Source: Limnohabitans parvus II-B4
GTDB taxonomy: Bacteria; Pseudomonadota; Gammaproteobacteria; Burkholderiales; Burkholderiaceae_C
DNA: 32,000 nt
NCBI RefSeq assembly: GCF_003063455.1
Contig: NZ_NESN01000005.1
Location: 99,506 to 131,505 of the forward strand
Direction: 5' to 3'
Every line of letters starts with the position of its first letter. The first letter of the stretch is position 1. Shown piece by piece: positions 5,201 to 18,228 of the stretch. The notes below the pieces were generated by a model, which worked only from the letters and a program-made list of their open reading frames with translations, was not told where the DNA came from and did not search any database. The translations under genes were made by a program, and so were the position numbers.

Positions 5201-5206
5201 TTTGAC

Positions 5207-5356: not shown

Positions 5357-5389
5357 TAACAAATCAACAACACCAACTTGGAGCGAGAC

Positions 5390-5629
5390 ATGGCTACAGC
5401 AGCAGACTTGGCAGCAAAAAAGAAGGCGGCAGAAGATGCAACAGCGGCATATCAAGCAGCAGTTGATGCAGCACGCGAAGAAGATTTGAAGACTGCAAAG
5501 GCACTTATTGAATTGCACGAATTCAAAGTTGCAGACTTGAAGCCTGAACTGAAATTAACACGTACGCCAGCAAAGAAGGCTGCAACTAAAAAGCCTGCAG
5601 CCAAGAAGTCATCACGCCACAAAAGTTGA
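5390..5629 (+). CDS. Small coiled-coil protein with Lys/Ala/Pro/Thr-rich basic tail (resembles an H-NS N-terminal domain but lacks the canonical DNA-binding domain)
   Basis: GGAG RBS then ATG at 5390. The sequence MATAADLAAKKKAAED...ALIELHEFKVADLKPE...TPAKKAATKKPAAKKSSRHKS has paralogs at the same position in elements B and C. Confidence 0.7.
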   Translation: MATAADLAAKKKAAEDATAAYQAAVDAAREEDLKTAKALIELHEFKVADLKPELKLTRTPAKKAATKKPAAKKSSRHKS

Positions 5630-5672
5630 GCGCACTGATGCGCTGCATGCTCAGTACTCAGCGCAGATATGG

Positions 5673-6581
5673 TTGACGCGGATTGCCAAACGCATCGACG
5701 ATCTGCACTATCAAAACTTCCATGTGCCAGTGTTGCAGCACCAAGAGCGTGTGCTGCGCGAAATGGGCTGTAACCAACAGTACCAAGTTGGTCATGTACA
5801 TGCAGACGCTGACTACGTGGATGCACAAGAGCGGTACACATATACAACACCCACTTGGCCTTTGCGTGCAGAGTTGACGGCGCAGCAAGTTCAGCAACTG
5901 CAAGCCATCAACTCAGCAGTACGTGCAGCGCTGCAACACAGGACAATCACACTGTCGCAGCTGCGCCGTGCATTGACACCACAACAGTTGCAAGAGTTTG
6001 CAGCAAGTTTGGCAGATGTGCATGAACCCAGTGAAATCATGTACGGCGGCGGCATGCCAGAACCACTGCGCGACTACAACGCTGCATTGAGAGCAGCAGA
6101 TTTCGCATGGTCAAGATTTGAAGCACAACCAACAACACCAAGACACAACGCACTCAGCGTAAAAAAAGCAGGTGCGAGCATGGAAGATCGCGCCATCAGT
6201 TTATATGAACATGCGATTGAGCGGTTGGCTGACATTTTTACCAGTGCACAGCGTGGTGATTACGGTGCAGGCATGTATGGCGAGTTGCAAACATGGATGG
6301 ACAGAACAGTTGAGTTCGATTCGCTGATGCCGAATGCAGTTGACACCAATCCATATGCAATGCCGCGAGTGCGCGGGAGTAAATCACGTTATGCACAAGA
6401 CTCAGGATTGCCCAAGCTGAGCAAACGCATCAAGCGTGAGTACTGTGCATTGATTTCGCTTCTGGTTGCAGGATGTGAATTGGCGTTTGTGTTACCTGTG
6501 CAGAAACCACAAGCCATGACACATCAAGAACAACAGCAGCAGCGTGACAAGCTTCGCATGCTGTTGCGCAAGCTCAAGTGA
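5673..6581 (+). CDS. Hypothetical protein, 302 aa (paralog of 20103-20990)
   Basis: Long ORF. Shares blocks with the element C paralog: RIDDLHYQNF/RILELEYINY and PRVRGSKSRYAQDSGLPKLSKRIKREYCAL/PRVKGSTSHYALDAGLPKLSVRLKREQCVL. Start codon uncertain (TTG 5673). Confidence 0.65.
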   Translation: MTRIAKRIDDLHYQNFHVPVLQHQERVLREMGCNQQYQVGHVHADADYVDAQERYTYTTPTWPLRAELTAQQVQQLQAINSAVRAALQHRTITLSQLRRALTPQQLQEFAASLADVHEPSEIMYGGGMPEPLRDYNAALRAADFAWSRFEAQPTTPRHNALSVKKAGASMEDRAISLYEHAIERLADIFTSAQRGDYGAGMYGELQTWMDRTVEFDSLMPNAVDTNPYAMPRVRGSKSRYAQDSGLPKLSKRIKREYCALISLLVAGCELAFVLPVQKPQAMTHQEQQQQRDKLRMLLRKLK

Positions 6582-6590
6582 GTGTCGCTG

Positions 6591-7157
6591 TCAAACCATT
6601 TCCACAGCGTTGCGCTTCATGTCGTCGTTGACGTCGATGTATTTTTGGGTCACAGCAATGCTGCGGTGTCCCGCTAACTCAGCCAACACCCGCACGCCAA
6701 TGCCACGTGATGCCAGCAAAGTTATGAATGATCTCCTCATCGAATGTGAGCTGGCTCCAGCAATGCCCGCACGCTTGAACAAGTAGTGAAAGTGCTGCGC
6801 CATCACGTTGGCGCTGAAGCGCTTGCGCCCCGCAGTGATGAACAGGGGGTTGGTAGCTGGAACAAGTCCACGCAGGTCCAAGTAGGCTTGCAGTTCATCA
6901 CGAAGCTTCTGCGGCAAGAACACTGTGCGTGGATGACGTCCCTTGGTCTGCGCCGCAGTGAGGCGTATTTCTGCACGCACACTGCCATCTGTGTTGCGCA
7001 CGTCACCCACTGAGAGACTGGCGATTTCTCCTACGCGAACGCCTGACCACAAGCCTGTCAAAAACATCACTCTATTGCGCATGGCGTAGCTGCGCGGTTG
7101 GATGTATTGCAGCACTTGTTCAATTTCTGCAGGGGTCAGTGTTTTGGCTTGGCTCAT
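6591..7157 (-). CDS. Small (about 188 aa) tyrosine recombinase, catalytic domain only, FimB/FimE-like size
   Basis: Catalytic residue contexts: GVRVGEI (Arg), HSMRRSF (His-x-x-Arg), LAGHRSIAVTQKY (His and Tyr). Start chosen at MSQAKTLT by alignment with the B and C paralogs (MAQAK, MAAAK). Confidence 0.85.
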   Translation of the reverse strand: MSQAKTLTPAEIEQVLQYIQPRSYAMRNRVMFLTGLWSGVRVGEIASLSVGDVRNTDGSVRAEIRLTAAQTKGRHPRTVFLPQKLRDELQAYLDLRGLVPATNPLFITAGRKRFSANVMAQHFHYLFKRAGIAGASSHSMRRSFITLLASRGIGVRVLAELAGHRSIAVTQKYIDVNDDMKRNAVEMV

Positions 7158-7474
7158 GGTGTGTTGGGTGTTTTTCAAATCGTTGCAGTCCTTTTAGTGT
7201 GTTTGGTTTGATGTTTTTGGGCGACCAATGCCCCGAAAAAATCACGGGGCAAATTTCCGTAATGATTTCAACCAGGTAAACCTAATCGTGATTTCATTTG
7301 GTGCTGTATTTATGTCGCGCCGCATGCAAGTTGTGCGAACTGCGCTACATCTCGCCAGCGATTGCATAAAACAGCGCTGCAGCGCTTGTGCGGAGTTCCA
7401 GCTACGTGGGGTGCTGGACTGGCGTGATCGCTGCGCACAGCGCTGATTTGAGGTGTGGGCTGCTGTAGTGTGAG

Positions 7475-7509
7475 CACTGCGCCAGCAAGACGGGACTGCT
7501 GGCGCAGTG
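7475..7509. repeat. Perfect 13-bp-stem hairpin (CACTGCGCCAGCA-N9-TGCTGGCGCAGTG)
   Basis: Read directly. Lies in the 430-bp noncoding gap between the small recombinase and the 118-aa ORF. Confidence 0.6.
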
Positions 7510-7612
7510 TCCACACATGCATGCATGCCCCGCAGGGTACACGGGTTACAGGTCGCACGTGAGCACAAGAGAGTCAACACTGCGCTGATGTTCTACATCT
7601 AAACGCACTGAA

Positions 7613-7969
7613 ATGAATGAATTTGAACCAGCCCAACTCGATCTGTTCACAGGCACTGAGCGCTACTACCGTATCACTCGCAGGTGCTTGCTAACAGATG
7701 GCACCAAATACCTCGCAGATGCAGCAGGTGCCTATTGGCTCATGGATGCCATTGCCAGCCATTTGCATGAAATTGGAACTGCGGATTGGTTTGTGCTCGT
7801 GCGCATGCATGTAACCAACACTCATGCGGTCATGACCTACGAGGATGGTCGTGGTCATGAGCACGCAACTCAAGTGATTGGCTACACAGACTTTCCCATG
7901 GCTTCAGTGACCATTTACGCCTGCTGGGACAGTGAGCATTGGGTGCTGATGTTGCCCACTGAGTATTGA
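7613..7969 (+). CDS. Hypothetical protein, DUF6876-like (family common on plasmids and ICEs), present in element A only
   Basis: 118-aa ORF. LTDGTKYLADAAGAYWLMDAIASH and a C-terminal VLMLPTEY resemble my recollection of DUF6876 proteins. Confidence 0.5.
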   Translation: MNEFEPAQLDLFTGTERYYRITRRCLLTDGTKYLADAAGAYWLMDAIASHLHEIGTADWFVLVRMHVTNTHAVMTYEDGRGHEHATQVIGYTDFPMASVTIYACWDSEHWVLMLPTEY

Positions 7970-7984
7970 AGTGATTGCACAAAC

Positions 7985-8395
7985 CCCAAGCGAACTCGCG
8001 TTCGCTGTGCACTCGCATGATGCGTCGCTGTCGCTCTGCATCATGCTCTGCACTGAATTTTTCTTGAGCAGACATGTGAGCAGCTGTGAACGAAGCCGAA
8101 CATCACGCAGTGATGGGAGGGGTATTGGGCTCATTTAGATTAGATTGGACACACGACGGCTATAGCACGAGAGCCACTCTGGTGCTATCAGCCGCCGTGT
8201 CGTGTAGTGTCATTTGAGTTGAGTCGTACTACACGCTCGTAAAAGAGTTTTAAGGGAGGCAGATGTATTGAAACTCCCAGTTGCGCATCGCAACCACTCT
8301 GCGGCATCACCTATTGCTCACACACCTTTACGACGATGTGTGTAGGGCGGGGTCATTAGCCGTCATATTCCAACCCGCGTTTTTGCCATTTTTTG
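7985..8395 (+). ncRNA. Hairpin-rich conserved noncoding element (structured RNA or folded-ssDNA site), copy 1
   Basis: No conserved ORF. Alignable to 22025-22400 with compensatory changes in several stems. The last covarying stem is followed by a T-rich tract on the + strand (GCGGG...CCCGC GTTTTT), which weakly suggests + orientation. Confidence 0.55.
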
Positions 8396-8432
8396 GCGAG
8401 TGACTTACTCGCATGAATTCCTCAGCTGCAGA

Positions 8433-8753
8433 TCAGCCAGCGCTGCCCAATTTCCTTTTGATCAACTTGGCGTATTTGCGCTGAGCTTGTTTGGTGATGT
8501 TCAAGACCTTGAAGCACTGACCTTGCGTGATCTTGCTGCGCTTGGCGCCATTGGCTGCACGCAGAAAATTATTCAGCGTGGCTGCTTGGTTTTGCTCCAG
8601 CAGCTTGACATGATTTTTTAGCGTGTTTGTTGCCAGCTTTTGCGCTTGGAACAGCTCTGCAGTGCCCACATAGATTTGATTGGCGTTGATGCCATTGCTT
8701 TTGAGCCATGCATCTGTCTTCTGCCTGTCCGTGATGTTCTTGAATGTTTCCAT
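8433..8753 (-). CDS. Hypothetical protein, about 106 aa (paralog 22461-22781); one arm of a divergent switch
   Basis: METFKNITDRQKTDAWLKSNGINAN... aligns with MNNYKNFKDDGLTADWLRDNGINVQ... in element C. An ATAAAT hexamer lies 6 nt upstream of the ATG and there is no Shine-Dalgarno sequence. Confidence 0.6.
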   Translation of the reverse strand: METFKNITDRQKTDAWLKSNGINANQIYVGTAELFQAQKLATNTLKNHVKLLEQNQAATLNNFLRAANGAKRSKITQGQCFKVLNITKQAQRKYAKLIKRKLGSAG

Positions 8754-8820
8754 GCAAGTATTTATGAATGCCAAATAAGACCGTGCTTTTTTCGTGGCGA
8801 TATTTGGCATAAATACCTGC

Positions 8821-9009
8821 ATGCAAATACATGAAGTCGTGATCAAGCCCAAAACGCCAGAGCAGCACCGCATTGATACCCTCAAAGCCACCAAAGACAG
8901 GGCAGCGGATGCTCTGGCTGTAGAACGTCAGCGCCAAAAGATCAGCAAGGCGCAGAAGGCAATGAATGCCGCACAGCAGTCAGCCAGCGTCACGCCCAAC
9001 GTCCCGTAA
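8821..9009 (+). CDS. Small hypothetical protein, 62 aa, M-x-I-x-E-[IV] family; other arm of the divergent switch
   Basis: MQIHEVVIKPKTPEQHRIDTLK... resembles MRINEIINTIKPKPPMTPAQSRLNSLK (element C) and MKISEI... (element B). An ATAAAT hexamer lies 6 nt upstream of the ATG. Confidence 0.5.
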   Translation: MQIHEVVIKPKTPEQHRIDTLKATKDRAADALAVERQRQKISKAQKAMNAAQQSASVTPNVP

Positions 9010-9151
9010 CTGGACGTTGAGTGTCGTGCGGCACGTCACCTTGCATCATGCGCAGCACATGACCCGTCATGTTCGCGGGTTTCTGGTCGCTGATGCCATC
9101 AAATGATCACAAAATTGTCTGTGCTTTACAAACATTTGAAAGGAAGAGCAC

Positions 9152-9595
9152 ATGACAGCCATTTTGAACACACTCAAATTGACCGCAGCACGCAAAACCC
9201 GTGCACTGCCCACAGTGGTCAAGCGTCGCAACAAACTCTTGATCAAACTGGGCGAGCAGCGCATGCTGGCAGATGCACAGGCGCAAGGACTGCATTACAC
9301 CCCCACACGTTACCGCTCATTCAAAGACGCTGACACTGGCGCACGCATCGCCAAACAAGTACCTGTTCGCATCAAGCCATGGTTTTGGATTGGGGAAAAG
9401 GGAGAGTGCTTGCTGGCAATCAACTACGGCAGCAAGCAAATTGAACTGCAAAAAGGAAAAACTGCCATTGACGTGGGTGACGTTGCAAACCTGTGTGCCG
9501 TGCTGGACACAGTGATTGACGCTGTGAAAAACGGTGAACTTGATCCGCAGATTGAGTCAGCCAGCGTGAAACTGCGCGAAGGCTTCAAGAAATAA
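9152..9595 (+). CDS. Conserved 147-aa integrase-associated hypothetical protein
   Basis: AAAGGAAG RBS. Near-identical paralogs at 16428-16871 and 23264-23707. Convergent with the integrase, and its 3' end overlaps the integrase 3' end. Confidence 0.8.
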   Translation: MTAILNTLKLTAARKTRALPTVVKRRNKLLIKLGEQRMLADAQAQGLHYTPTRYRSFKDADTGARIAKQVPVRIKPWFWIGEKGECLLAINYGSKQIELQKGKTAIDVGDVANLCAVLDTVIDAVKNGELDPQIESASVKLREGFKK

Positions 9596-10940
9596 CGGAT
9601 GGGCTGTGCTGACGAGTCCTGCGACTTTGCAGCATGCCAATGTTCTGCTCGCCCGTTACCGTGCTGGCGTAGTGCTGGTTGATCATGTCCACACTGGTGC
9701 GTGCATTGCGTGCCAGTGTCAGCAAGTCAATGCCTTGTCCGTATAGCAAACGGAAGGTGATGCTGGAATGGCGCAGACTGTACAAGCTGCGCTCTTGTCC
9801 GTGCGCACCCAACTTCAACCCAGTGCGTGCCAAAACCCAGTTGAAATAAAACGCCAGCACCCAGTGCGCATAAGCACGATCACGCAAGTACGGCAGGAAC
9901 AGGTAGTTGTCTGGTGCTGCAAGGTTCTGTGCGCTGTAGTGCTGCGTGATCTGTTGATAGATGCGCACTGCAGGCTGCAGCGTGACGATGGGGCGTGAGT
10001 GGCTTTTTGTTTTGGGCAAGTTCAGGCGCAGGTAAGTGTTGTCATTGCGCACCACTTCTACGTGTCTGTGCTTGAGGGTTTTCAAATCGCTTGGGCGTAT
10101 GAAGCTGTTGACCATAAAACCAATGCACCACGCAACATCTGGCGGCATGGTGTACTCAGCTGAGCGCAAACGGTAGTTTTTGCGCAGTGTGCTGTCGCTG
10201 TCAGGGTGTCTGGTGTGCTGCAGCTTGCGAGCAGTGCGCATGATCTGCCAGTATTCAGTGGGTGTAAAAGCGCCGCGACTGTTGGTTTGTACTTTGATCT
10301 TGGGAAACTCTGGCAGCTTGTCCAGCGCATTCACTGCCACAGCCAGTGTCAATATCTTGCGCACAGCAACCAAGTACTGGCTGACGGTGATGGTTGAGAA
10401 ACTCTTGCTCAGGTACTGAGTGAATACCAGCAGTTCAGCGTGATCCACAGCAGCAGGTGATAGTTTGCCCCAGCGCGGCAGTATGTGTGCATCCAGTCTG
10501 TTGCGCAGCACTTTCAAGCTGCCTGCTGAAAACTCACCGCGCTCCACACGAGCTTGTTCGTTTGTGATCATTTGCGCTGCCATTGCAGCAAATGTTTTCT
10601 GGGGTTTGACTGCAGTGGTCGCGAGAGATACGACACCTTGTATTGGCGTTGGTTTAATGCGCAAACTGGCAGACTGCGCCAGCAGTTGCTCGTAAAAGTC
10701 ACGTGCAAAGCTTTGAGCCATGCGCAGGCTTTGCGTCTGTGTGCTGCGTCTGTGTGTGCGTCCTTCAATCCAGCAGCGCACTTGCCAAAACTTGCTGGCA
10801 GCTATTTTGAACACAGATAGTTTGCGGGGATAGCCAGGTACTGGTGTGATGGTCGCAGGAATGGGCACTGTGCGCTCACGTGCTTGAGTGCGTAGCACTG
10901 GGTCGTTGGCTGCAGCTGCGGTAAAAACGGTCAACATCAC
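9585..10940 (-). CDS. Tyrosine-type site-specific integrase (451 aa), element A
   Basis: C-terminal catalytic contexts FIRPSDL (Arg), YSLRHSSITF (Arg-His) and MINQHYAS (Tyr). Paralogs occur in elements B and C. Confidence 0.9.
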   Translation of the reverse strand: MMLTVFTAAAANDPVLRTQARERTVPIPATITPVPGYPRKLSVFKIAASKFWQVRCWIEGRTHRRSTQTQSLRMAQSFARDFYEQLLAQSASLRIKPTPIQGVVSLATTAVKPQKTFAAMAAQMITNEQARVERGEFSAGSLKVLRNRLDAHILPRWGKLSPAAVDHAELLVFTQYLSKSFSTITVSQYLVAVRKILTLAVAVNALDKLPEFPKIKVQTNSRGAFTPTEYWQIMRTARKLQHTRHPDSDSTLRKNYRLRSAEYTMPPDVAWCIGFMVNSFIRPSDLKTLKHRHVEVVRNDNTYLRLNLPKTKSHSRPIVTLQPAVRIYQQITQHYSAQNLAAPDNYLFLPYLRDRAYAHWVLAFYFNWVLARTGLKLGAHGQERSLYSLRHSSITFRLLYGQGIDLLTLARNARTSVDMINQHYASTVTGEQNIGMLQSRRTRQHSPSVIS

Positions 10941-11183
10941 TCAAGCGTACTGTTGTACATCGCAAATGCAACCGCGCACAAAAACGGTTGAAGCGATTAA
11001 CAGGCGTAGTCTTGCCGTGTTGTTGCCGTGCTGCACCGTGTGCATCCACGCTGATAAAAAGACATGCTGCACACTGAACAGTTGTACACCAGCAGGTTTG
11101 CAACAAGCGTCACTTTTAGGTTGGGTGAACCTTGGCGTGCTCTTTTAAACTTTTCGGAATTTTGTGAGGAAAATCAAGCATTG
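10941..11183. promoter_or_regulatory. Conserved arm between integrase start and att core (attP P-arm-like), junction A/B
   Basis: About 243 bp, conserved with 18229-18472 and 25057-25303. Two direct GTTGTACA repeats at 10952-10959 and 11081-11088, exactly 129 bp apart in all three arms. Confidence 0.55.
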
Positions 11184-12295
11184 TTGCTCTGGCTGCTGTT
11201 GCTGCCACCGGCGCTGCTTTCGCACAATCCACCGTGACTTTGTTCGGTGGCGCTGACCTGAACTACCGCTCTGTCACTTCCGGCGCGAACAAGTTCAGCG
11301 GTATGGCTCAAGACGGTATCTACTCCAGCCGTTTTGGCGTGATGGGTACTGAAGATCTGGGCGGCGGCTTGAAGGCTGGCTTCCACTTCGAAGGCGGCAT
11401 GGCTCCTGACGTCGGCACTTCAACTGGCTTCAACTTCACACGCAAGTCCACCATCGGTTTGTCCGGCGGTTTCGGTGAAGTCCGCTTCGGCCGTGACTAC
11501 ACCCCTATGTTTACGGTCGCTGGTATCGCTGATCCATTCGGCACCAACGGTGTGGGTTCTTCCTACAACGTTGCTAACGGTGTGACCTCAGATGGCGTGA
11601 TTGCTGCAGCTGGTTCATTTGCAACAGCTCAAGCTGCTGCTGCCGCAACAACACCTGCCTCCACAGTTGCAGCTGGCGCTGTTTACGCTGATCCAAACGC
11701 TGTTCGCGCTAACAACAGCATTGCTTACTACAGCCCATCTTTCAGTGGTTTCACTGTTAGCGGTATGTACAGCTTCGGTGGCGAGAACACCAACGTGGCC
11801 AAGAAAGCTGGCACTATGTCCAGCATCAAATTGGCTTACGCCAACGGTCCAGTTTCCGTTGCTTTCGGTAACCAAATCACCAAAGGTGGCGTTGCAACAA
11901 CTTCCGCTGCTGACACTGAAAAGTGGACAACCAACTTCTTGGCTGGTGCTTATGACCTGGGCGTTGCTAAGTTGAGCTTGGGTTACAAAACTGACAAGTT
12001 GTCATTTGCTGACGACGCAAGTGTGAAGTCCATGATTTACGGTGTTGCTGCTCCTATGGGTGCTGTGACTTTGAAGGCTTCTTACGTTACTGCTAAGGCT
12101 GACGGCGATAAAATGGCAAACCAGTTCGCCTTGGGTGCAGTGTATGACCTGAGCAAGCGCACTTCTGCCTACGCTACTTACTCAACTCTGAAGAACGAAG
12201 AAGGTTCTGGTAAGAGCGTTGGTTCCGCTGCAGCTAGCGATTTCACTGGCCTGCGTTCCAAAGGCTTCGAAATCGGCGTGAAGCACACTTTCTAA
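11180..12295 (+). CDS. Porin, full-length but start-less and promoter-less copy 2
   Basis: The frame is open from 11168, after an in-frame TGA at 11165-11167. It encodes ..IVALAAVAATGAAFA|QSTVTLFGG..., then GTEDLGGG, and ends GVKHTF. There is no in-frame ATG; the track ORF starts at GTG 11234, inside the mature protein. Confidence 0.8.
   Translation: MVALAAVAATGAAFAQSTVTLFGGADLNYRSVTSGANKFSGMAQDGIYSSRFGVMGTEDLGGGLKAGFHFEGGMAPDVGTSTGFNFTRKSTIGLSGGFGEVRFGRDYTPMFTVAGIADPFGTNGVGSSYNVANGVTSDGVIAAAGSFATAQAAAAATTPASTVAAGAVYADPNAVRANNSIAYYSPSFSGFTVSGMYSFGGENTNVAKKAGTMSSIKLAYANGPVSVAFGNQITKGGVATTSAADTEKWTTNFLAGAYDLGVAKLSLGYKTDKLSFADDASVKSMIYGVAAPMGAVTLKASYVTAKADGDKMANQFALGAVYDLSKRTSAYATYSTLKNEEGSGKSVGSAAASDFTGLRSKGFEIGVKHTF
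11184..11247 (+). repeat. Candidate att core copy 2
   Basis: 64/64 identical to 4173-4236. Divergence is abrupt on both sides. Confidence 0.6.
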
Positions 12296-12364: not shown

Positions 12365-12443
12365 ATTGGCTGAACGCTGTGCGTTGCAGTCAGCAAATAA
12401 CTGCACTCAAGGGAAAACACTGGTGCAGTGTTGGTGATGTTGC

Positions 12444-12451
12444 TGATAAAT
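12444..12451 (+). promoter_or_regulatory. Extended -10-like promoter TGATAAAT, element B
   Basis: Positional homolog of 5348-5356. Confidence 0.35.
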
Positions 12452-12485
12452 TGATAAATGTGACAACAACACATTGGAGACACAA

Positions 12486-12725
12486 ATGACAGCGACAAAT
12501 GATCCGCAACAGCAACTTGAAGAGATGATTGCTGCGCAGAAACTGCTTGAAGAACAAATCAAACAGCAACGTGAAGTTGCGCGGCAAGCAGCTTTGGAAT
12601 CAATCAAGCGTTTGTATGAGTCACATGCATTCGAATACAAAGATGTAAAAGACTTCATCAAATCAACTCCCGCTCGCAAGACAACGCCACGCAAAACAGC
12701 GACAAGAAAAAAGCGCAGCACATAA
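12486..12725 (+). CDS. Small coiled-coil protein with basic tail, element B paralog
   Basis: GGAGA RBS then ATG at 12486. Sequence MTATNDPQQQLEEMIAAQKLLEEQ...LYESHAFEYKDVKDFI...TPARKTTPRKTATRKKRST. Confidence 0.7.
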   Translation: MTATNDPQQQLEEMIAAQKLLEEQIKQQREVARQAALESIKRLYESHAFEYKDVKDFIKSTPARKTTPRKTATRKKRST

Positions 12726-12750
12726 AGGCGTTGGAAAACTGCTCAAAGAA

Positions 12751-12786
12751 AAACAGCGTCACGCTTTGTGTACGCTGTTTTTTTAT
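12751..12786. terminator. Hairpin terminator between convergent genes
   Basis: AAACAGCGT-N12-ACGCTGTTT followed by a T run on the + strand. The upstream A run could serve the minus-strand gene. Confidence 0.6.
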
Positions 12787-12803
12787 GTGTGCGTGCAATG
12801 GTG

Positions 12804-13163
12804 TCAGTTGGTGCGTGGTGCTTGGTGTGCTTTGAAAAGATTTTGCTGTGCTTTTTGCAGCTTGCTGCGTGCTTTGACTTGCTGGGCTTGTTGGTTGAGT
12901 TGTTTGGCACGGTCGCGCATGGATTTGACTTGAAGCTCTGCGGCGGACAACGGTGCGGTGGTTTCGTCAATCGCTTGTTCGCGTGCAAACGGTAGCAGGG
13001 ACAGAACATTTACTGCTCCGTACTTTTCCGCGAGCAAGATTTTGGCATGCATGAAGTCGTCAGCGAGTGTGACGATTCGAGCGGTGATGGTCAATTGGTT
13101 TTTAACAACACGAACGGTGGCAATGAATGACAGTAGTGAATGAGTAATTTCGCTGATCTTCAT
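12804..13163 (-). CDS. Hypothetical protein, 119 aa, M-x-I-x-E-I family (longer relative of the 62/63-aa proteins)
   Basis: MKISEI N-terminus. The C-terminal PLSAAELQVKSMRDRAKQLNQQAQQVKARSKLQKAQ resembles the Gln/Lys-rich tails of the A and C proteins. An ATAAAT hexamer lies 6 nt upstream of the ATG. Confidence 0.55.
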   Translation of the reverse strand: MKISEITHSLLSFIATVRVVKNQLTITARIVTLADDFMHAKILLAEKYGAVNVLSLLPFAREQAIDETTAPLSAAELQVKSMRDRAKQLNQQAQQVKARSKLQKAQQNLFKAHQAPRTN

Positions 13164-13394
13164 GCAATTATTTATCGCACTGGCACAAGTGCGGTGACTG
13201 CGCTAGCTGTGCGGTGTTGTGCTAGCGCAGTGCGTCGTGATGCGGTAGAAATTGATTGAGAAAAAATGAATGAAACAAGTGCAGCAGAGGAATGTGAAAA
13301 ATCAATTGCATCGGCGCAAGTTGCAGCGATGCGGTGCACACGAAATGAATTGGGAATATTGCACGAAAATTTGCACGGCAAAATGAATTGCAAA

Positions 13395-13700
13395 AATCAA
13401 TCTATTTGGTTTTGTTGCGAAACTATTTGGTTCTAAATAAATATCAATGAGTGACAAAAAAGAGAAGATCAATTCATAGTGTGGTTGTTTAGAGATGTGT
13501 GTGTACGAGTTTGTGTGTTTGTATGTGTGTGATGTGCAAGCAAGTGAAGCAATCGTTAATGATGTGTTGCGCTGCGCTTACACATCTGTGAGCTTCATTC
13601 GCTTCGCTCATTCGTCACAATTTTCTTCAACTGCATTTGGTCTCAATTGATGGAAGTGGGATATGTATTATTTGAAGAATTACTATATGTGTAAGACATT
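13395..13700. other. AT-rich noncoding region with iteron-like repeats and a TG-rich tract (candidate origin or control region of element B)
   Basis: CTATTTGGTT at 13402-13411 and 13423-13432, 21 bp apart. A (TG)n-like tract at about 13480-13537. No credible ORF. Confidence 0.35.
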
Positions 13701-13736
13701 TTTAATGTCGCACACAGTGCAGCATGGGAGCAGTGC

Positions 13737-15311
13737 ATGACTGCGCAAACAATCAAGCTCACAGCAAGTGACGCTGTTGCAGCAGCACTCAAACGTGCAA
13801 TGCCCAAAACAAACAAAGCGCAATTGGCATTGGCAAAGTACATCAGCGTGCTTGAGCAGCATTTGGAGCAATCGCTGCTGCACATGGATGACAACATGTA
13901 CAGGTTTTTCAGACACTTTTATGTGAGCACGCACGATTTGACGCTGCAAGTGGGGCAGTTTGTGATTGATGGCAAAAGGCAGTACTTGCACAAGTGGCTG
14001 GAGTCAAACCGTTTGAATCTTGTTGCTGTGGTTTCAACAGGACAAAAAGGCGGGGATTATTCCACGGTGCAACTGACGCGGTATGTGACCATGACTGATG
14101 CCATGGACATCAATCAATTGCGCAAGAAGACGATAAATGAATTGGATGCATTGCTCAAAGACAATTCACTGACGGATTCGGATTTCTTTTACAAGATATT
14201 TCCAGACTTTGCCGCAATGAGCAAAGCAGAAGTTGATGAAAACTACGATCTGTGTCCAGTGGATGTGGCATCACTCAAACAGTTCATTGTGTTCTTGACC
14301 AAACGAGCAAACAAGATGAACGATGTGCAGCGGCAGATGTTGGTGCGACAAGCACAAGCGATTGTGAGAATTGCACAAGCGGGCAGCAACACATTGCCCA
14401 TGAAAAAGAATCCCAGTCACTTTGGGCGCATGTACTACACGGGTGCACTGAATGTGCAATCAATTAGAACAGTGCTGCGTCATGCCATGCTGGGCGACTG
14501 CTATGAATACGACATCCGTTCAAGTGTTGTGGCATGGAAGCTGGGTTTTGCTTGGATGATTTGCGAGAAAAATGGAATCGTACCGCATGAGTTCAATGCG
14601 TCATTTGCAACTTGCTTGAGTTATTTGACGGACAAAAAAGCATTCAGAGAAACAATCAGGCAGCAGACATTTGGCGGCGGTACGCATATCAGCGCGGACA
14701 TGCAGCTGGATGTGGTCAAACAAGCACTGACTGCAATCAGCTTTGGCGCGAGAAAGACAACACAAGGTTGGATTGATCGCAGCGGCAAAGCATTTAATCC
14801 TGCAATCGTCAAAATCATTGCAGATGAGCACGCACGCAGCAACTTCTACGCTTGTGCTGAGGCAGCAGCGTATATGGACGAGAACAAGCGCATGGACGAG
14901 ATCATCACTGAGTATGCAAAAGAAAACGATCCAGCACTGCTCGCAGACACCGAACTGCAAACAGCATCAGGACGAATAAGCAAAAGCAAATTGATGTCGT
15001 TCTTGTATCAACAGTCAGAGTCAATTGTGATGGACATTGTTCGCAGAGAAGTTGGTGCGGTTTACAAAACAGTTTTGGCGAACGTGCATGATGCCATTTA
15101 CATCAATGAGCGGCTGCACAGTGCAGACAAGAAACGAATTGAACTGCTGATGCGCAGAGAAACGGGATTGCAGTTTTGGTATTTGGATGAAGAAAAAATT
15201 ACGGGCTACAAAGGTATTTCTGACGAAGTGCGCAAGGCAGAGCTGGCACACAAGGCGTTGATTGCGCAGCAAGAACAGTTGGCAAAGAGCTACGTGCCCA
15301 AAAACTTCTGA
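13737..15311 (+). CDS. 524-aa protein with family-A (PolI/T7-like) polymerase palm-and-fingers-like motifs; candidate minimal polymerase
   Basis: GGGAG RBS. FGRMYYTGALNVQSIRTVLRHAM...CYEYDIRSSVVAWKL resembles TGRLSS-PNLQNIP-IRxAF-DYSQIELRVLAH. KQALTAISFGARK resembles motif B (AKxINFG). ANVHDAIYI resembles motif C (QVHDE). Confidence 0.45.
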   Translation: MTAQTIKLTASDAVAAALKRAMPKTNKAQLALAKYISVLEQHLEQSLLHMDDNMYRFFRHFYVSTHDLTLQVGQFVIDGKRQYLHKWLESNRLNLVAVVSTGQKGGDYSTVQLTRYVTMTDAMDINQLRKKTINELDALLKDNSLTDSDFFYKIFPDFAAMSKAEVDENYDLCPVDVASLKQFIVFLTKRANKMNDVQRQMLVRQAQAIVRIAQAGSNTLPMKKNPSHFGRMYYTGALNVQSIRTVLRHAMLGDCYEYDIRSSVVAWKLGFAWMICEKNGIVPHEFNASFATCLSYLTDKKAFRETIRQQTFGGGTHISADMQLDVVKQALTAISFGARKTTQGWIDRSGKAFNPAIVKIIADEHARSNFYACAEAAAYMDENKRMDEIITEYAKENDPALLADTELQTASGRISKSKLMSFLYQQSESIVMDIVRREVGAVYKTVLANVHDAIYINERLHSADKKRIELLMRRETGLQFWYLDEEKITGYKGISDEVRKAELAHKALIAQQEQLAKSYVPKNF

Positions 15312-15642
15312 GTGTTGCGTTTGACTCACACTGCTGCAACAAAATATTATTGCGATTCAACTTAGAAAGTTGCATTGCACTTTGCGCTGCGCTGCTAGAC
15401 TTGTTTAAACAAGCTGTGCTGCGTTATTTTTGAAAATGCATACGCGGTATGCTGAGTGAGCCGTTAAGGGTTTGTGCGCTGTTTTGCGCAATCGCAGACC
15501 AAGTGAAATTACACTAATATTTGGTTTTGCAAAAAGGCAATACATTCGTACAAGTTTCAGGTGTGATTGTTTTGGTTGTCCGCGTAGATGTTTGGTTGCA
15601 CACTTGCATTGAATAAATATTTGATAGCAAGGAGTGGCAAAT

Positions 15643-16242
15643 ATGGCGCAAGCAAAGGTACTGACACAAGATGAAGTTGAACGAGTGATGCAATATCTCG
15701 GCAAGAAGCAGCACGCAATGAGAAACCAAGCAATGTTCTTGTTGACGCACGGATGTGGCGTGCGCATCAAAGAGTTGGTCAGCATGCGTATCTGTGATGT
15801 GTTGGAACGCAACGGCGATATCAAGCAAGAAGTCAATCTCAACAGAAACCAAACCAAGGGCGCTCGTGGGCGCACTGTGTATCTGGCTGACAAAATGCGT
15901 GATGTGATTCGCAACTATTTGCGCGAAAAATTTGGTGTGCAGGATTTATTGGCTGTGACCATGTCAAACACAAGTCGCGCACTGTTTGCTACGCAAAAGA
16001 GCGCTGACCGTGGGTTTTCTGCATCAACTGGCTGTCAAATGTTTCACTACTGGTACAAGGACTGTGACATTGTTCATGGCAGCAGTCACAGTGGTCGTCG
16101 TTCATTCATTACGAATTTGGCGAACAAAGGCGTGGCGATTCATGTGTTGAAAGAGTTGGCAGGACACAGATCTATTGTGGTCACCGAAAAGTACATTGCA
16201 AAGAATCCAACGGTGCTGCACGCAAGTGTCAACATGCTGTAA
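15643..16242 (+). CDS. Small (about 199 aa) tyrosine recombinase, element B paralog, on the opposite strand relative to A and C
   Basis: AAGGAG RBS. MAQAKVLTQDEVERVMQYL. Catalytic contexts GVRIKEL (Arg), HSGRRSF, LAGHRSIVVTEKY. Confidence 0.85.
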   Translation: MAQAKVLTQDEVERVMQYLGKKQHAMRNQAMFLLTHGCGVRIKELVSMRICDVLERNGDIKQEVNLNRNQTKGARGRTVYLADKMRDVIRNYLREKFGVQDLLAVTMSNTSRALFATQKSADRGFSASTGCQMFHYWYKDCDIVHGSSHSGRRSFITNLANKGVAIHVLKELAGHRSIVVTEKYIAKNPTVLHASVNML

Positions 16243-16264
16243 AAATACCATCTGCGTTTTTGCT

Positions 16265-16312
16265 GCAAATGTTGGTGCAGTTGTTGGTGCAAATGTTGGT
16301 GCAGTTGTTGGT
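16265..16312. repeat. Tandem repeat, 2 x 24 bp (4 x 12 bp GCA[AG][AT]TGTTGGT)
   Basis: GCAAATGTTGGTGCAGTTGTTGGT occurs twice back to back. An imperfect hairpin GTCATTTAAAG-N5-CTTTAATGAC follows. Confidence 0.8.
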
Positions 16313-16427
16313 GTCATTTAAAGCGACACTTTAATGACCCGCAATACTGAACGGAATTCGGTTGCTCACCCGTGGTGGTTGGGCACAAAATTGTCTGTGC
16401 TTTACAAACATTCGAAAGGAAAAGCAC

Positions 16428-16871
16428 ATGACAGCCATTCTGAACACATTGAAGTTGACTGCAGCCCGCAAGACACGTGCACTGCCTGACGTTGTCAAAC
16501 GCCGCAACAAGCTGCTGATTAAATTGGGCGAGCAGCGCATGTTGGCAGCTGCACAGGCGCAAGGGCAGCACTACACGCCCACACGCTTTCGCTCATTCGC
16601 AGATGCTGACACTGGTGCACGGGTTGTTAAACAAGTGCCTGTTCGCATCAAGCCGTGGTTTTGGACTGGAGAGAAGGGCGAGTGTTTGCTGGCTATCAAC
16701 TATGGCAGCAAGCAAATTGAACTGCAAAAGGGCAAGACTGCCATCGATGTTGGTGCAGTTGAGAACATATGCGCAGTCTTGGACACGGTGATTGATGCTG
16801 TGCGCAATGGTGAACTGGACACGCAGATTGAAAGTGCCAGTGTAAAACTGCGCGATGGATTCAAGAAATAA
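16428..16871 (+). CDS. Conserved 147-aa integrase-associated hypothetical protein, element B
   Basis: AAAGGA RBS then ATG at 16428. MTAILNTLKLTAARKTRALP... is nearly identical to 9152-9595. Confidence 0.8.
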   Translation: MTAILNTLKLTAARKTRALPDVVKRRNKLLIKLGEQRMLAAAQAQGQHYTPTRFRSFADADTGARVVKQVPVRIKPWFWTGEKGECLLAINYGSKQIELQKGKTAIDVGAVENICAVLDTVIDAVRNGELDTQIESASVKLRDGFKK

Positions 16872-18228
16872 CTGTGTGTGATAACTGGCTGTGCTGACGA
16901 GTACGGCGACTTTGCAGCATGCCAATGTTCTGCTCGCCCGTTACGGTGCTGGCGTAGTGCTGGTTGATCATGTCCACACTGGTACGTGCATTGCGTGCCA
17001 GTGTCAGCAAGTCAATGCCTTGTCCGTAGAGCAAGCGAAACGTGATGCTTGAATGGCGTAGGCTGTACAAGCTGCGCTCTTGTCCATGCGCACCCAGCTT
17101 TAATCCAGTGCGTGCCAATACCCAGTTGAAATAAAAGCTCAGCACCCAGTGCGCATAGGCGCGGTCACGCAGGTGCGGTAGAAACAAGTAGTCGTCTGGT
17201 GCAGCAAGGTTCCGTGCGCTGTGGTGTTGGGTCAGCTGCTGGTAAATGCGAACAGCAGGTTGTAGCGTGACGATGGGACGAGTGTGGCTTTTGGTTTTGG
17301 GTAGGTTCAGGCGCAGGTAGGTATTGCCGTTACGCACCACTTCCACGTGTCTGTGCTTGAGTGTTTTGAGGTCGCTTGGGCGTATGAAGCTGTTGACCAT
17401 AAAACCTATGACCCATGCAACATCTGGCGGCATGGTGTACTCAGCTGAGCGCAAGCGATAGCTTTTGCGCAGTGTGCTGTCGCTGTCAGGGTGTCGTGTG
17501 TTTTGCAGCTTGCGAGCAGTGCGCATGATCTGCCAGTACTCTGTGGGCGTGAATGCGCCGCGCGAGTTGGTTTGCACTCGAACTTTGGGAAACTCTGGCA
17601 ACTTGTCCAGCGCATTCACTGCCACAGCCAGTGTCAATATTTTGCGCACTGCAACCAAGTACTGGCTGACGGTGATGGTGGAAAAGCTCTTGCTCAGGTA
17701 CTGCGTGAATGCCAGCAGCTGTGCGTGGTCAATGTCCTCTGGTCGTTGTTTACCCCAGCGCGGCAAGATGTGTGCATCCAGTCTGTTGCGCAGAACTTTC
17801 AAGCTGCCTGAACTAAACTCGCCGCGCTCAACACGGGCATGCTCGTTTGTGAGCATCTGCGCTGCCATTGCAGCAAAGGTCAGCTGTGGTTTGACTGCGG
17901 TGATGTGAGAAACGACACAGGATGTTGATGTTGGTGTTGGCTCAGTGCGCAAACTGGCAGACTGCGCTAGCAATTGTTCATAAAAGTCACGTGCAAAGCT
18001 TTGTGCCATGCGCAGACTTTGCGTTTGTGTGCTGCGTCTGTGTGTACGTCCCGCAATCCAGCAGCGCACTTGCCAAAACTTGCTGGCAGCTATTTTGAAC
18101 ACTGATAGTTTGCGGGGATAACCTGGCACTGGTGTGATGGTTGTAGGAATGGGCACTGTGCGCTCACGTGCTTGAGTGCGCAGAACTGGGTCGTTGGCTG
18201 CGGCTGCGGTAAAAACGGTATGCATCAC
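16861..18228 (-). CDS. Tyrosine-type site-specific integrase (455 aa), element B
   Basis: Highly similar to 9585-10940 along the whole length, with the same catalytic contexts. Confidence 0.9.
   Translation of the reverse strand: MMHTVFTAAAANDPVLRTQARERTVPIPTTITPVPGYPRKLSVFKIAASKFWQVRCWIAGRTHRRSTQTQSLRMAQSFARDFYEQLLAQSASLRTEPTPTSTSCVVSHITAVKPQLTFAAMAAQMLTNEHARVERGEFSSGSLKVLRNRLDAHILPRWGKQRPEDIDHAQLLAFTQYLSKSFSTITVSQYLVAVRKILTLAVAVNALDKLPEFPKVRVQTNSRGAFTPTEYWQIMRTARKLQNTRHPDSDSTLRKSYRLRSAEYTMPPDVAWVIGFMVNSFIRPSDLKTLKHRHVEVVRNGNTYLRLNLPKTKSHTRPIVTLQPAVRIYQQLTQHHSARNLAAPDDYLFLPHLRDRAYAHWVLSFYFNWVLARTGLKLGAHGQERSLYSLRHSSITFRLLYGQGIDLLTLARNARTSVDMINQHYASTVTGEQNIGMLQSRRTRQHSQLSHTVIS

What the first reader, a model, noticed from the sequence alone, without database searches (positions are those of the whole stretch)
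11140..11250. Downstream porin copies keep intact full-length ORFs but have a disabled version of the RBS and ATG, with an in-frame stop just upstream
The expressed leader reads AAACTTTGGAGAACTCTCAATGAAAAAAACTCTGATTGCTCTGG. The three other copies read:
- AAACTTTTCGGAATTTTGTGAGGAAAATCAAGCATTGTTGCTCTGG (copy 2)
- GAACTTTTCGGATGCTCTAAGGAAAAATTAAGCTTTTGTTGCTCTGG (copy 3)
- AACCTTTCGGATACTTGATGGAAAAATAAAACATTGTTTGCTCTGG (copy 4)

These are recognisably related to the expressed leader, but none has an in-frame ATG. Copy 4 has an ATG shifted out of frame that stops after three codons. In-frame stops sit at 11165-11167, 18463-18465 and 25282-25284.

All three ORFs still run uninterrupted for about 315-370 codons. 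Each keeps the AFA|QS cleavage site, the EDLGGG motif and the terminal Phe required for outer-membrane assembly. Intact but unexpressible ORFs argue for periodic expression after recombination rather than decay.
Basis: seen in the sequence. Interest (0 to 1): 0.8.

Follow-up and report, generated by a model that had tools for sequence, protein, structure and literature searches.

The report
Recombinase-switched porin gene cassettes
The three "start-less" porin genes are intact spare bodies of the cell's major outer-membrane pore; each sits behind its own integrase and a 12-base recombination site inside the signal-peptide code, so DNA recombination rather than decay probably decides which porin is made.

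Summary
Window porins P2, P3 and P4 are intact Omp32-type ORFs with no in-frame ATG, no good RBS and an in-frame stop just upstream. The cause is not point-mutational disabling.

- **Local structure.** Each silent copy lies 230-250 nt from a divergently transcribed tyrosine integrase of about 450 aa. It begins at a 12-nt core, TTGCTCTGGCTG (signal-peptide codons 6-10). This core occurs exactly four times in the window, all on the + strand.
- **Relatives.** I examined the window plus 82 related loci from freshwater Comamonadaceae. All 42 integrase-adjacent porins lack a start; 38 of these are complete and intact. Of 38 other porins, 32 begin MKK… (Fisher p = 1e-16).
- **Site occupancy.** Relatives show the same COQ7-porin site empty (Limnohabitans Hippo3, with a P2-type porin that has an ATG) or carrying one module.
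- **Inversion.** In Ramlibacter-type relatives the cores are inverted. The leader-bearing segment is found in both orientations.
- **Selection.** dN/dS of silent copies is 0.12-0.18. Variation is concentrated in the external loops.

Best reading: this is a recombinase-driven porin-switching and porin-replacement system. In this window it is built from three tandem integrative modules of about 7 kb. Excision between direct cores would fuse the single leader to the next porin body. I found no published description. Activity, directionality and the role of the 3′ block remain inferred.

The parts
3810..4156 (+). Chromosomal expression site: the COQ7-porin intergenic leader, with SD GGAGA at 4145-4149.
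   Evidence: Read directly. Syntenic with the leader of the empty site L081 and of L001-L003, L077 and L082.
4157..5200 (+). P1, the only porin joined to a promoter/SD/ATG (MKKTLI…). Omp32-type Porin_4.
   Evidence: 76% aa identity to the first porin of L001.
4173..4184 (+). Core 1, TTGCTCTGGCTG, in signal-peptide codons 6-10. attL-like junction (leader | core).
   Evidence: This 12-mer occurs exactly 4 times in the window, all on the + strand. Junction analysis.
5188..5305 (+). 3′ identity block of P1: the last 12 nt of the CDS, the terminator hairpin and about 35 nt beyond. Its counterparts lie at 12284-12400, 19575-19690 and 26232-26349.
   Evidence: This is the right-hand breakpoint of the exchanged porin cassette.
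5306..9107 (.). Variable cargo of module 1. It holds a 302-aa ORF (5673-6581), a small tyrosine recombinase (6591-7178, -), DUF6876 (7613-7969) and a 153-aa ORF (8433-8894, -).
9152..9595 (+). DUF6641 protein of module 1. Copies also lie at about 16428-16871 and 23264-23707.
   Evidence: Pfam PF20346 at 8.6e-11. It is next to the integrase in every direct-type locus examined here (L001, L002, L082, L113, L163-L165).
9585..10940 (-). Integrase 1, a tyrosine recombinase of about 450 aa. It is 100% identical to the NCBI entry 'site-specific integrase [Limnohabitans parvus]'.
   Evidence: (PHROG_1, 8e-18).
10941..11183 (+). Element-side arm 1 (pseudo-leader). It holds two GTTGTACA-N-TGCAAC motifs (10952, 11081) and two GCCGT repeats (11014, 11025). 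It ends in the start-less mimic of the leader.
11184..11195 (+). Core 2.
   Evidence: The 66 nt from this point on are identical to P1.
11168..12295 (+). P2, a silent porin body (open from 11168; TGA at 11165-67).
   Evidence: 85.4% nt / 91% aa identical to the sole, ATG-bearing porin of the empty site in Limnohabitans sp. Hippo3.
12401..16383 (.). Variable cargo of module 2. It holds a 524-aa ORF (13737-15311) and a small tyrosine recombinase (15634-16242, +).
   Evidence: The module is 92.7% identical over 6 kb to the L002 module.
16861..18228 (-). Integrase 2.
   Evidence: 92% aa identity to integrase 1.
18229..18472 (+). Element-side arm 2 (pseudo-leader).
18473..18484 (+). Core 3.
18466..19581 (+). 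P3, a silent porin body (TAA at 18463-65).
19691..23250 (.). Variable cargo of module 3. It holds a 295-aa ORF (20103-20990), a small tyrosine recombinase (20987-21688, -) and a 149-aa ORF (22461-22910, -).
   Evidence: The module is 83-91% identical to the L001 module.
23713..25056 (-). Integrase 3.
25057..25303 (+). Element-side arm 3 (pseudo-leader), with the out-of-frame ATG at 25284.
25304..25315 (+). Core 4.
25285..26244 (+). P4, a silent porin body (TGA at 25282-84). It is followed by the chromosomal genes TctC (26624-27691, -) and DUF3047.
   Evidence: A P4-type porin (85% nt identity) sits in the first, ATG-bearing position in L087.

Best explanation
The window (Limnohabitans parvus II-B4) carries one porin expression site and four exchangeable porin bodies.

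**Expression site.** The COQ7-side leader supplies the promoter, the SD, the ATG and the first codons, MKKTLI.

**Recombination site.** A lineage-specific tyrosine integrase recombines at a short core, TTGCTCTGGCTG, inside the signal-peptide coding sequence.

**Modules.** Each ~7-kb unit is an integrative module. Read along the + strand it consists of:
- a porin body;
- a conserved 3′ block;
- variable cargo, including a small second recombinase;
- a DUF6641 gene;
- the integrase;
- an arm with repeated motifs;
- the core.

**Effect of integration.** Integration at the core hands the chromosomal leader and start to one porin body. The porin that was previously expressed is left behind the integrase arm, without promoter, SD or ATG. 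Three modules have accumulated in tandem here, so P1 is expressed and P2-P4 are stored.

**Reversal.** Recombination between two direct cores would excise the intervening module or modules as a circle. That would fuse the leader in frame to P2, P3 or P4.

**What is shown**
- the anatomy;
- sharp junctions at the core in many genomes;
- empty, single and multiple occupancy of the same site;
- inversion of the leader segment between inverted cores in related genomes;
- intactness and purifying selection of the silent copies;
- loop-focused variation.

**What is inferred**
- that the integrase catalyses these events;
- that they occur on ecological time scales;
- that a second exchange at the 3′ block, by homologous recombination or by the small recombinase, completes a true cassette swap;
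- that the benefit is escape from phages or other agents that recognise the porin.
For: 1. **Repeat structure.** A 2.1-kb block is repeated three times directly upstream of P2, P3 and P4. It comprises DUF6641, the integrase and the intergenic arm. The integrase identity rests.
2. **Core count.** The 12-nt core occurs exactly 4 times in the window, all on the + strand, at the four porin 5′ ends.
3. **Start status.** 42 of 42 integrase-adjacent porins lack a start and 38 of them are intact. 32 of 38 other porins start MKK. Fisher p = 1.3e-16.
4. **Sharp junction.** The junction falls at the core in every locus. In distant members (L008, L048, L030, L052) the left side is unrelated to a leader, as expected for attP/attB arms.
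5. **Occupancy of the same site.**
   - Empty in Hippo3 (L081), with a P2-type porin carrying an ATG.
   - Empty in at least 10 metagenome loci.
   - One module in L001, L002, L003 (a complete genome), L077, L082 and L164.
   - Two or more integrases in L044 and in strain MMS-10A-192.
   -.
6. **Inversion.** In Ramlibacter-type loci the two cores are inverted. The OsmC-COQ7-leader segment lies in opposite orientations in L053, L061 and L063 versus L058 and L059, while the flanks stay collinear. Further inverted-type loci are L104, L118, L125, L130 and L133.
7. **Both states per type.** P2-type and P4-type porins occur both silent and with a start.
8. **Selection.** dN/dS is 0.12 for silent versus expressed and 0.18 for silent versus silent.
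9. **Where variation lies.** Mean pairwise identity of the four window porins is 0.83 in periplasmic turns, 0.33 in strands and 0.15 in external loops.
10. **Arm motifs.** The integrase-to-core arm is conserved and carries repeated motifs.
Against: - There is no direct evidence of recombination within a population. I found no circular junction, no contig with terminal repeats, and I had no read-level data.
- Porin bodies are not linked to the neighbouring module on either side:
  - The L002 module is 92.7% identical to module 2, but both flanking porins are under 35% identical.
  - The first porins of L082 and L002 are 99% identical although different modules lie downstream.
- A simple 'element carries its own porin' model is therefore incomplete. 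A second exchange point at the 3′ block is needed.
- P2, not the last copy P4, is the orthologue of the Hippo3 resident porin. Explaining this requires later homologous recombination between arrays.
- The integrase does not reach Pfam PF00589 gathering, its AF2 model was poor, and it has no match in the PDB.
- In most but not all loci, attL and attR are identical for 50-150 nt to the right of the core. Site-specific recombination alone does not explain this.
- The elements show no recognisable transfer or replication genes.
Confidence: 0.68

Rival explanations
1. The modules insert at the 3′ terminator block of the resident porin. Each brings a 5′-truncated porin next to its integrase. On this reading the first porin is the resident one, and the start-less copies are passenger genes that are never joined to the leader.
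For: - Similarity of the P4 3′ flank to the other copies ends about 105 nt after the stop codon, while P1-P3 continue into conserved module sequence.
- High identity between the L002 module and window module 2 begins at the 3′ block.
- Nearly identical first porins in L082 and L002 are followed by different modules.
- The arrangement P1-like / module / P2-like recurs in both L001 and the window.
Against: - It does not explain why 38 of 38 passenger porins are intact with dN/dS of 0.12-0.18.
- It does not explain why the same types occur with true starts elsewhere.
- It does not explain why the break with the leader sits at one conserved core in lineages whose integrases are only about 50% identical.
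- It does not explain why inverted cores flank an invertible leader segment in relatives.
- The integrase would lie about 1.4 kb from one end of its element and about 4 kb from the other.
Confidence: 0.12
2. The copies are silent donors for RecA-dependent gene conversion into the expression site, in the manner of pilS/pilE or relapsing-fever Borrelia vmp. The conserved signal-peptide block and 3′ block would serve as upstream and downstream homology. The integrases would be irrelevant hitch-hikers.
For: - Every porin in a locus shares a near-identical 5′ block and a 3′ block of about 100 nt around a highly divergent centre.
- A recently exchanged segment runs exactly from the core to the stop codon.
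Against: - The association of start-less porins with a divergent integrase at a fixed distance of 225-300 nt is perfect, 42 of 42.
- The conserved arm carries repeated motifs.
- The inversion polymorphism lies exactly between inverted cores.
- Some neighbouring copies share only 12 nt at the 5′ side. That is too short for efficient RecA exchange.
Confidence: 0.1
3. All four porins are made. The downstream copies are translated from non-canonical or weak starts (ATT at 11180, CTG or TTG at 18478/18487, TTG at 25300). They would give short signal peptides without a charged N-region.
For: - PGAP annotates P2 from ATT (P0121).
- GAGG lies 10 nt upstream of that ATT.
- The silent copy in L077 has an in-frame ATG two codons before the core.
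- Purifying selection is compatible with expression.
Against: - No start position or SD is conserved among the pseudo-leaders.
- The candidate starts delete the Lys-rich N-region. For P3 they also delete much of the hydrophobic core.
- No promoter was recognisable, although the scan also failed on the true leader.
- No Rfam element lies in the arms.
- The same alleles carry normal MKK starts when they are first in line.
Confidence: 0.08
4. The downstream copies are dead duplicates (pseudogenes) or assembly artefacts.
For: They lack starts and have an in-frame stop upstream.
Against: - All 38 complete silent copies across many genera are intact. The only short one contains a masked N-run.
- dN/dS is 0.12-0.18.
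- The architecture recurs in a complete genome (L003) and in dozens of independent assemblies.
Confidence: 0.02

Closest known systems
Mycoplasma pulmonis vsa and M. agalactiae vpma site-specific inversion switches (summarised in PMC4534519)
   Same: - A single expression site carries the promoter and the N-terminal coding DNA.
- Silent genes lack both.
- A short recombination site lies inside the 5′ coding region of every copy.
- A dedicated tyrosine recombinase is encoded at the locus.
- The Ramlibacter-type relatives found here (L053, L058 and others) work in this geometry.
   Different: - In the window all sites are direct, so the expected product is excision and integration, not inversion.
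- Every silent copy has its own integrase plus several kb of variable cargo.
- The target is a general-diffusion porin of a free-living freshwater bacterium.
- The site lies in the signal peptide of an Omp32-type β-barrel protein.
Borrelia hermsii vmp7/vmp26 activation by deletion between a short direct repeat (as described in PMC4534519)
   Same: A downstream start-less gene is activated by deleting the expressed gene between short direct repeats located a few codons into the ORF.
   Different: - The Borrelia event is not tied to a dedicated recombinase or to a mobile module.
- It is irreversible.
- Here each interval carries an integrase, and the excised circle could in principle re-integrate.
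Integrative elements that target a gene and restore it (tRNA/tmRNA-targeting islands; regulatory-switch prophages and skin/nifD-type elements). This comparison rests on my own knowledge.
   Same: - The integrase lies at the element edge.
- Direct repeats flank the element, with an identity block that runs from the crossover into the gene.
- Empty sites exist in relatives.
- The target gene remains functional after insertion.
   Different: - The replaced part is almost the whole gene, and it is a divergent allele (about 30% aa identity) rather than an identical copy. Insertion therefore changes the product.
- The displaced body is kept intact.
- Modules accumulate in tandem.
Integrons (own knowledge; NCBIfam integron-integrase models scored far below cut-off)
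   Same: - An array of promoter-less cassettes is expressed only from one fixed upstream site.
- A tyrosine recombinase is involved.
- Cassette order determines expression.
   Different: - There is no attC hairpin, no attI/Pc platform and no IntI.
- Cassettes lack their own start and are fused in frame.
- Each cassette carries its own integrase.
Bacteroides SusC/SusD-family outer-membrane protein shufflons (cited in PMC9881135)
   Same: Tyrosine-recombinase-driven exchange of outer-membrane protein genes behind one promoter.
   Different: - They work by inversion only.
- They involve a different protein family and a different phylum.
- PMC9881135, a systematic survey of gene-altering inversions, does not mention porins at all.

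Membership tests
Omp32-type general porin (Porin_4) | Match to PF13609, homology to Omp32, a 16-strand barrel and a C-terminal Phe. | tested here: met
   - PF13609 at 7e-55 for P1.
- P2 matches PDB 1E54 at 5e-42.
- The AF2 model of P2 has pLDDT 78 and shows 16 strands with short turns and long loops.
- All four porins end in Phe.
Tyrosine recombinase / phage-type integrase (the ~450-aa protein) | Sequence membership in an integrase profile. | tested here: met
   - PHROG_1 integrase at 8.4e-18 over residues 41-411.
- The NCBI and UniRef names are 'site-specific integrase' and 'Tyr recombinase domain'.
- Homologues carry PF22022 and PF13102.
Tyrosine recombinase / phage-type integrase (the ~450-aa protein) | The catalytic R…K…HxxR…H/W…Y set, and the fold. 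| tested here: inconclusive
   - hhalign against the PF00589-positive small recombinases aligns IRPSDL (Arg), TKSH (Lys) and YSLRHS (Arg). The probability is only 21%.
- Pfam PF00589 is not reached.
- The PDB profile search gave nothing.
- The AF2 model has pLDDT 45 and is unusable.
Integrative element with attL/attR | Integrase at the edge, direct repeats of the target at both ends, and an empty site in relatives. | tested here: met
   - The integrase lies 230-250 nt from the core.
- The core is repeated directly.
- Empty sites are L081, L083, L089, L091, L094, L111, L114 and L121.
- Single-module sites are L001-L003, L077, L082 and L164.
Integrative element with attL/attR | Observed excision or a circular form. 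| not testable with these tools
   No read-level data were available. No contig showed terminal repeats. There are no relatives in IMG/VR, the phage set or the plasmid set.
Expression-site switch by site-specific inversion (vsa/vpma type) | One expression site with promoter and N-terminal codons, silent copies that lack them, and a shared short site in the 5′ coding region. | tested here: met
Expression-site switch by site-specific inversion (vsa/vpma type) | Sites in inverted orientation, with both orientations observed. | tested here: not met
   In the window all four cores are on the + strand. The feature is met only in relatives: L053, L061 and L063 versus L058 and L059.
Integron | IntI-type integrase, attI with Pc, and attC hairpins on the cassettes. 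| tested here: not met
   - The integron-integrase models score 53 and 24 bits against cut-offs of 265 and 435, and only for the small recombinase.
- Cassette ends are a signal-peptide core and a terminator block, not attC.
RecA-dependent silent-cassette gene conversion (pilS/vls/msp2 type) | Donor copies with conserved flanking homology and no dedicated recombinase. | tested here: inconclusive
   Conserved 5′ and 3′ blocks exist, and cassette-sized exchanges have occurred. However, a dedicated integrase accompanies every silent copy. RecA dependence is not testable here.

The most novel reading that the evidence does not exclude
This may be a previously undescribed family of tyrosine recombinases, widespread in freshwater Comamonadaceae, whose recombination site lies in frame inside the signal-peptide code of the major porin gene.

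- In some genera it would act as a two-porin inversion switch.
- In Limnohabitans it would be packaged into small self-contained modules that carry out a two-step cassette exchange.
  - Step 1: integrate at the 5′ core.
  - Step 2: resolve at the 3′ block.
- The host's surface porin would be swapped, and the element would leave with the old one.
- Tandem arrays like this window would then be porin libraries readable by excision, in effect an integron-like store of phage-receptor variants.
Probability: 0.4. Interest if true: 0.88.

Novelty: new variant of a known kind. Interest (0 to 1): 0.78.

Why it matters
- **Ecology.** Limnohabitans and its relatives are among the most abundant freshwater bacterioplankton and are under heavy phage and grazer pressure. 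Their major porin is an obvious receptor.
- **What it would explain.** A dedicated recombinase system that swaps the whole porin body while keeping old versions intact could account for the extreme porin diversity at this locus, about 30% aa identity between neighbours. It would be a new, genetically tractable route to surface variation in free-living bacteria, not only in pathogens.
- **A new kind of target.** It shows a recombination site embedded in frame in a signal peptide. This lets a mobile module capture a host promoter and start codon for its own gene.
- **Annotation.** Gene callers currently label these copies 'hypothetical protein' from an ATT start, or extend them upstream. Such calls are probably wrong.

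Tried and rejected
- **Integrase structure.** The AlphaFold model had pLDDT 45 and was unusable, so I ran no fold search. A profile search against PDB sequences gave nothing.
- **Phage, virus or plasmid origin.** The integrase has no relatives in IMG/VR or the phage collection. In plasmids there are only hits of at most about 50% identity, and about 26% where most of the protein is covered.
- **Cargo function.** No convincing PHROG, NCBIfam or PADLOC assignment was obtained. The only PADLOC hit was a marginal PDC-S62 match at E = 8e-4 for the 119-aa ORF.
- **Promoters.** The promoter scan found nothing, even in the true leader, so it is uninformative.
- **RNA elements.** Rfam found no RNA element in the arms.
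- **Circular forms.** No held contig has terminal repeats.
- **A site for the small recombinase.** The palindromic motif in the 3′ block has no inverted partner in the window.
- **Which porin travels with which module.** Linkage is broken on both sides. The strict 'element carries the left porin' and 'element carries the right porin' models are therefore both rejected as complete accounts.
- **Programmed frameshift or mini-ORF re-initiation at ATGG/GGAAAAAT.** I considered this and dropped it, because the ATG and the frame are not conserved among pseudo-leaders.
- **Literature.** Seven full-text searches and two papers read found no description of porin-targeting recombinases.
Full report
**1. 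Observation.**

The window holds four Omp32-type porin genes on the + strand (Porin_4; P2 matches PDB 1E54 at 5e-42).
- P1 (4157-5200) has GGAGA seven nt before its ATG and starts MKKTLIALAAVAATGAAFA|QS.
- P2, P3 and P4 are open only from 11168, 18466 and 25285. These positions directly follow in-frame TGA, TAA and TGA.
- None of the three has an in-frame ATG before the cleavage site.
- All keep the cleavage site, the EDLGGG motif and a terminal Phe.
- The 50 nt upstream of the shared sequence resemble the true leader, at 60-66% identity. At most 2 of 1000 shuffles reach this score for copies 2 and 3, and 22 of 1000 for copy 4.

**2. What surrounds the copies.**

A self-comparison shows that each silent copy is preceded by the same 2.1-kb block, at 78-86% identity. 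The block contains:
- a DUF6641 gene;
- a divergently transcribed ORF of about 450 aa;
- an arm of about 245 nt.

The ORF is 100% identical to 'site-specific integrase [Limnohabitans parvus]'. It matches PHROG_1 integrase at 8e-18. Its IRPSDL, TKSH and YSLRHS motifs align to the catalytic Arg, Lys and Arg of the PF00589-positive small recombinases also present in the window.

The window therefore consists of a chromosomal left flank (OsmC, an AAA_14 ATPase and COQ7), then P1, then three modules of about 7 kb each ending at the next porin, and then the chromosomal genes TctC, DUF3047 and a peptide ABC operon. Each module contains a 3′ block, variable cargo with a small recombinase, DUF6641, the integrase and the arm.

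The 12-mer TTGCTCTGGCTG (codons 6-10) occurs exactly four times, all on the + strand, at the four porin 5′ ends. To its left, P1 carries the leader and P2-P4 carry the integrase arm. To its right, P1 and P2 are identical for 66 nt.

**3. Relatives.**

The integrase family has more than 3000 homologues. It is found in Limnohabitans, Polaromonas, Rhodoferax, Hylemonella, Ramlibacter and many Comamonadaceae MAGs. I found none in IMG/VR, the phage set or (closely) the plasmid set.

I scored every porin in the window plus 82 loci:
- All 42 porins whose core lies within 600 nt of a divergent integrase start lack an MKK start.
  - 38 are complete and uninterrupted.
  - 3 run off their contig.
  - 1 contains a masked N-run.
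- 32 of the 38 other porins start MKK….
- The remaining six are the silent partners of inverted-type loci.
- Fisher p = 1.3e-16.

The break between 'leader' and 'non-leader' sequence is always at the core. In the more distant loci (L008, L048, L030, L052) the left side has no resemblance to a leader. That is what attP/attB arms look like, and not what a mutated start looks like.

**4. Polymorphism of the site.**

The same COQ7-porin-DUF3047 site shows several states.
- **Empty:** Limnohabitans sp. Hippo3 (L081). Its single porin is P2-type and starts MKKTLIALA. It is 85.4% nt / 91% aa identical to window P2, the same divergence as the flanks at 82.6-84.6%.
- **Empty in metagenomes:** at least ten COQ7 loci (L083, L089, L091, L094, L111, L114, L121 and others).
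- **One module:** L001, L002, L003 (a complete genome), L077, L082 and L164.
- **Two or more integrases:** L044 and strain MMS-10A-192.
- **Either position:** P2-type and P4-type porins occur both first in line with a start and behind an integrase without one.

**5. Inversion in relatives.**

In Ramlibacter-type loci the integrase is about 48-50% identical to the window's. It sits next to two porin bodies whose cores are inverted (about CTAGYTGCYYTGGCTG).

The 1.8-kb OsmC-COQ7-leader segment between the cores is inverted in L053 relative to L058 and L059, while the flanks are collinear. The leader is joined to the right porin in L053, L061 and L063 and to the left porin in L058 and L059.

Tail-to-tail and long-range inverted arrangements also exist (L052, L104, L118, L125, L130, L133).

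This is the signature of a site-specific switch acting at the signal-peptide core. It makes the same activity the most economical explanation for the direct-repeat arrays.

**6. Are the silent copies maintained?**
- dN/dS is 0.12 for silent P2 versus the expressed Hippo3 porin.
- It is 0.18 for silent versus silent, and 0.19 for expressed versus expressed.
- I mapped variation on an AF2 model of P2 (pLDDT 78, 16 strands). Mean pairwise identity of the four window porins is 0.83 in periplasmic turns, 0.33 in strands and 0.15 in external loops. Nearly all indels fall in loops L2, L3, L5 and L6.

The copies are therefore functional porins that differ where the cell meets the outside.

**7. Mechanism and its limits.**

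The best-supported model is that the integrase recombines cores. Integration puts one body behind the leader and strands the previous one behind the arm. Recombination between direct cores would excise modules as circles and fuse the leader to a downstream body.

The arm carries two GTTGTACA-N-TGCAAC motifs and two or three GCCGT repeats. It also has an invariant GGAAAAAT…TGTTT just left of the core, which mimics ATGAAAAAAACTCTGATT without the ATG. This may reflect a shared recombinase-binding half-site. That is inference.

The simple model is incomplete.
- Modules that are 87-94% identical are flanked by unrelated porins on both sides.
- The first porins of L082 and L002 are 99% identical from the core to the stop codon. 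Their COQ7 flanks are about 84% identical and their downstream modules differ.
- All porins within a locus also share a near-identical 3′ block of about 100 nt.

Porin bodies therefore behave as cassettes with two exchange points, the core and the 3′ block. One hypothesis that fits is a two-step swap: integration at the core, then resolution at the 3′ block by homologous recombination or by the small recombinase. The chromosome would keep the new porin and the module would leave with the old one. I found no direct support for a specific site in the 3′ block.

**8. Rivals.**
- Insertion at the 3′ block with never-expressed passenger porins fits some breakpoints. It does not fit the intactness, the selection, the state-switching of alleles, the core junction or the inversions.
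- Pure RecA gene conversion fits the conserved flanks. It does not fit the perfect association with integrases or the inversions.
- Leaky translation from ATT, TTG or CTG cannot be excluded. PGAP uses ATT for P2, and L077 has an in-frame ATG. However, no start is conserved, and the resulting signal peptides would lack the charged N-region.
- Decay or assembly artefact is contradicted.

**9. Comparison with known systems.**

Functionally this is closest to two systems described in PMC4534519:
- the mycoplasma vsa/vpma expression-site switches;
- the Borrelia hermsii vmp7/vmp26 deletion.

It also resembles gene-restoring integrative elements and integrons. It differs in several ways:
- it uses direct sites in this genome;
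- it gives each silent copy its own integrase and cargo;
- it places the site in frame in a signal peptide;
- it targets a general porin.

A systematic survey of gene-altering inversions does not mention porins (PMC9881135). Seven full-text searches found no description. I therefore rate it a new variant of a known kind.

**10. Verdict.**

Interest is high. The decisive experiments are junction PCR or long reads and a recombination assay.

Noticed in passing
window 1196-1257 (-): Rfam match to the Betaproteobacteria toxic small RNA (RF02278): 54 bits against a gathering score of 50, E = 2e-8. It lies upstream of OsmC. The same stretch is conserved in L001, L002, L077 and L081-L083.
   Followed up: no
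window 6591-7178 (-), 15634-16242 (+), 20987-21688 (-): Each module carries a second, small tyrosine recombinase of 195-233 aa that consists of the catalytic domain only (PF00589, E about 1e-27). It is in the size class of FimB/FimE- and Xer-type enzymes. Its site and role are unknown. It might act at the 3′ block.
   Followed up: partly
window 5188-5305, 12284-12400, 19575-19690, 26232-26349; L082 3492-4370 vs L002: Porin bodies are cassettes. Each has a 3′ identity block of about 100 nt, made of the last codons plus the hairpin AAACCCACCGTGGCAACACGGTGGGTTTTTT. This block is shared by all porins of a locus. A 99%-identical body was exchanged between genomes whose flanks are only about 84% identical.
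   Followed up: yes
L053, L058, L059, L061, L063, L052, L104, L118, L125, L130, L133: Relatives have inverted cores, giving an invertible OsmC-COQ7-leader segment or tail-to-tail porin pairs next to a homologous integrase. This looks like a two-porin inversion switch in Ramlibacter-like bacteria.
   Followed up: yes
L077 15953-21350; L163/L164 vs window 27800-32000: The peptide ABC operon to the right of the porin locus is inverted relative to the porin in some Limnohabitans loci. This hints at larger inversions anchored at this locus.
   Followed up: no
window 26624-27691 (-): The TctC (Bug-family) gene between the last porin and DUF3047 is present in the window, L001, L002, L089 and L094. 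It is absent in L081, L082 and L083. This presence/absence polymorphism lies at the right edge of the array.
   Followed up: no
window 11180 (P2); L001 8525-9868: Public annotations guess at starts for the silent copies. PGAP calls P2 a 'hypothetical protein' from an ATT start (MVALAAV…). JGI extends the L001 silent copy to 447 aa from an upstream ATG.
   Followed up: partly
window 5306-9107, 12401-16383, 19691-23250; L164, L165: The module cargo is highly variable between loci: a 302-aa ORF with DUF6876; a 524-aa ORF; 437-aa and 599-aa ORFs; or 237-, 357- and 264-aa ORFs. None has a recognisable function, and no transfer, replication or defence genes were identified.
   Followed up: partly
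window 1939-3159 (+): An AAA_14/DUF4143 ATPase gene lies between OsmC and COQ7 in the window and in Hippo3 (L081). It is absent at that position in L001, L002 and L082.
   Followed up: no
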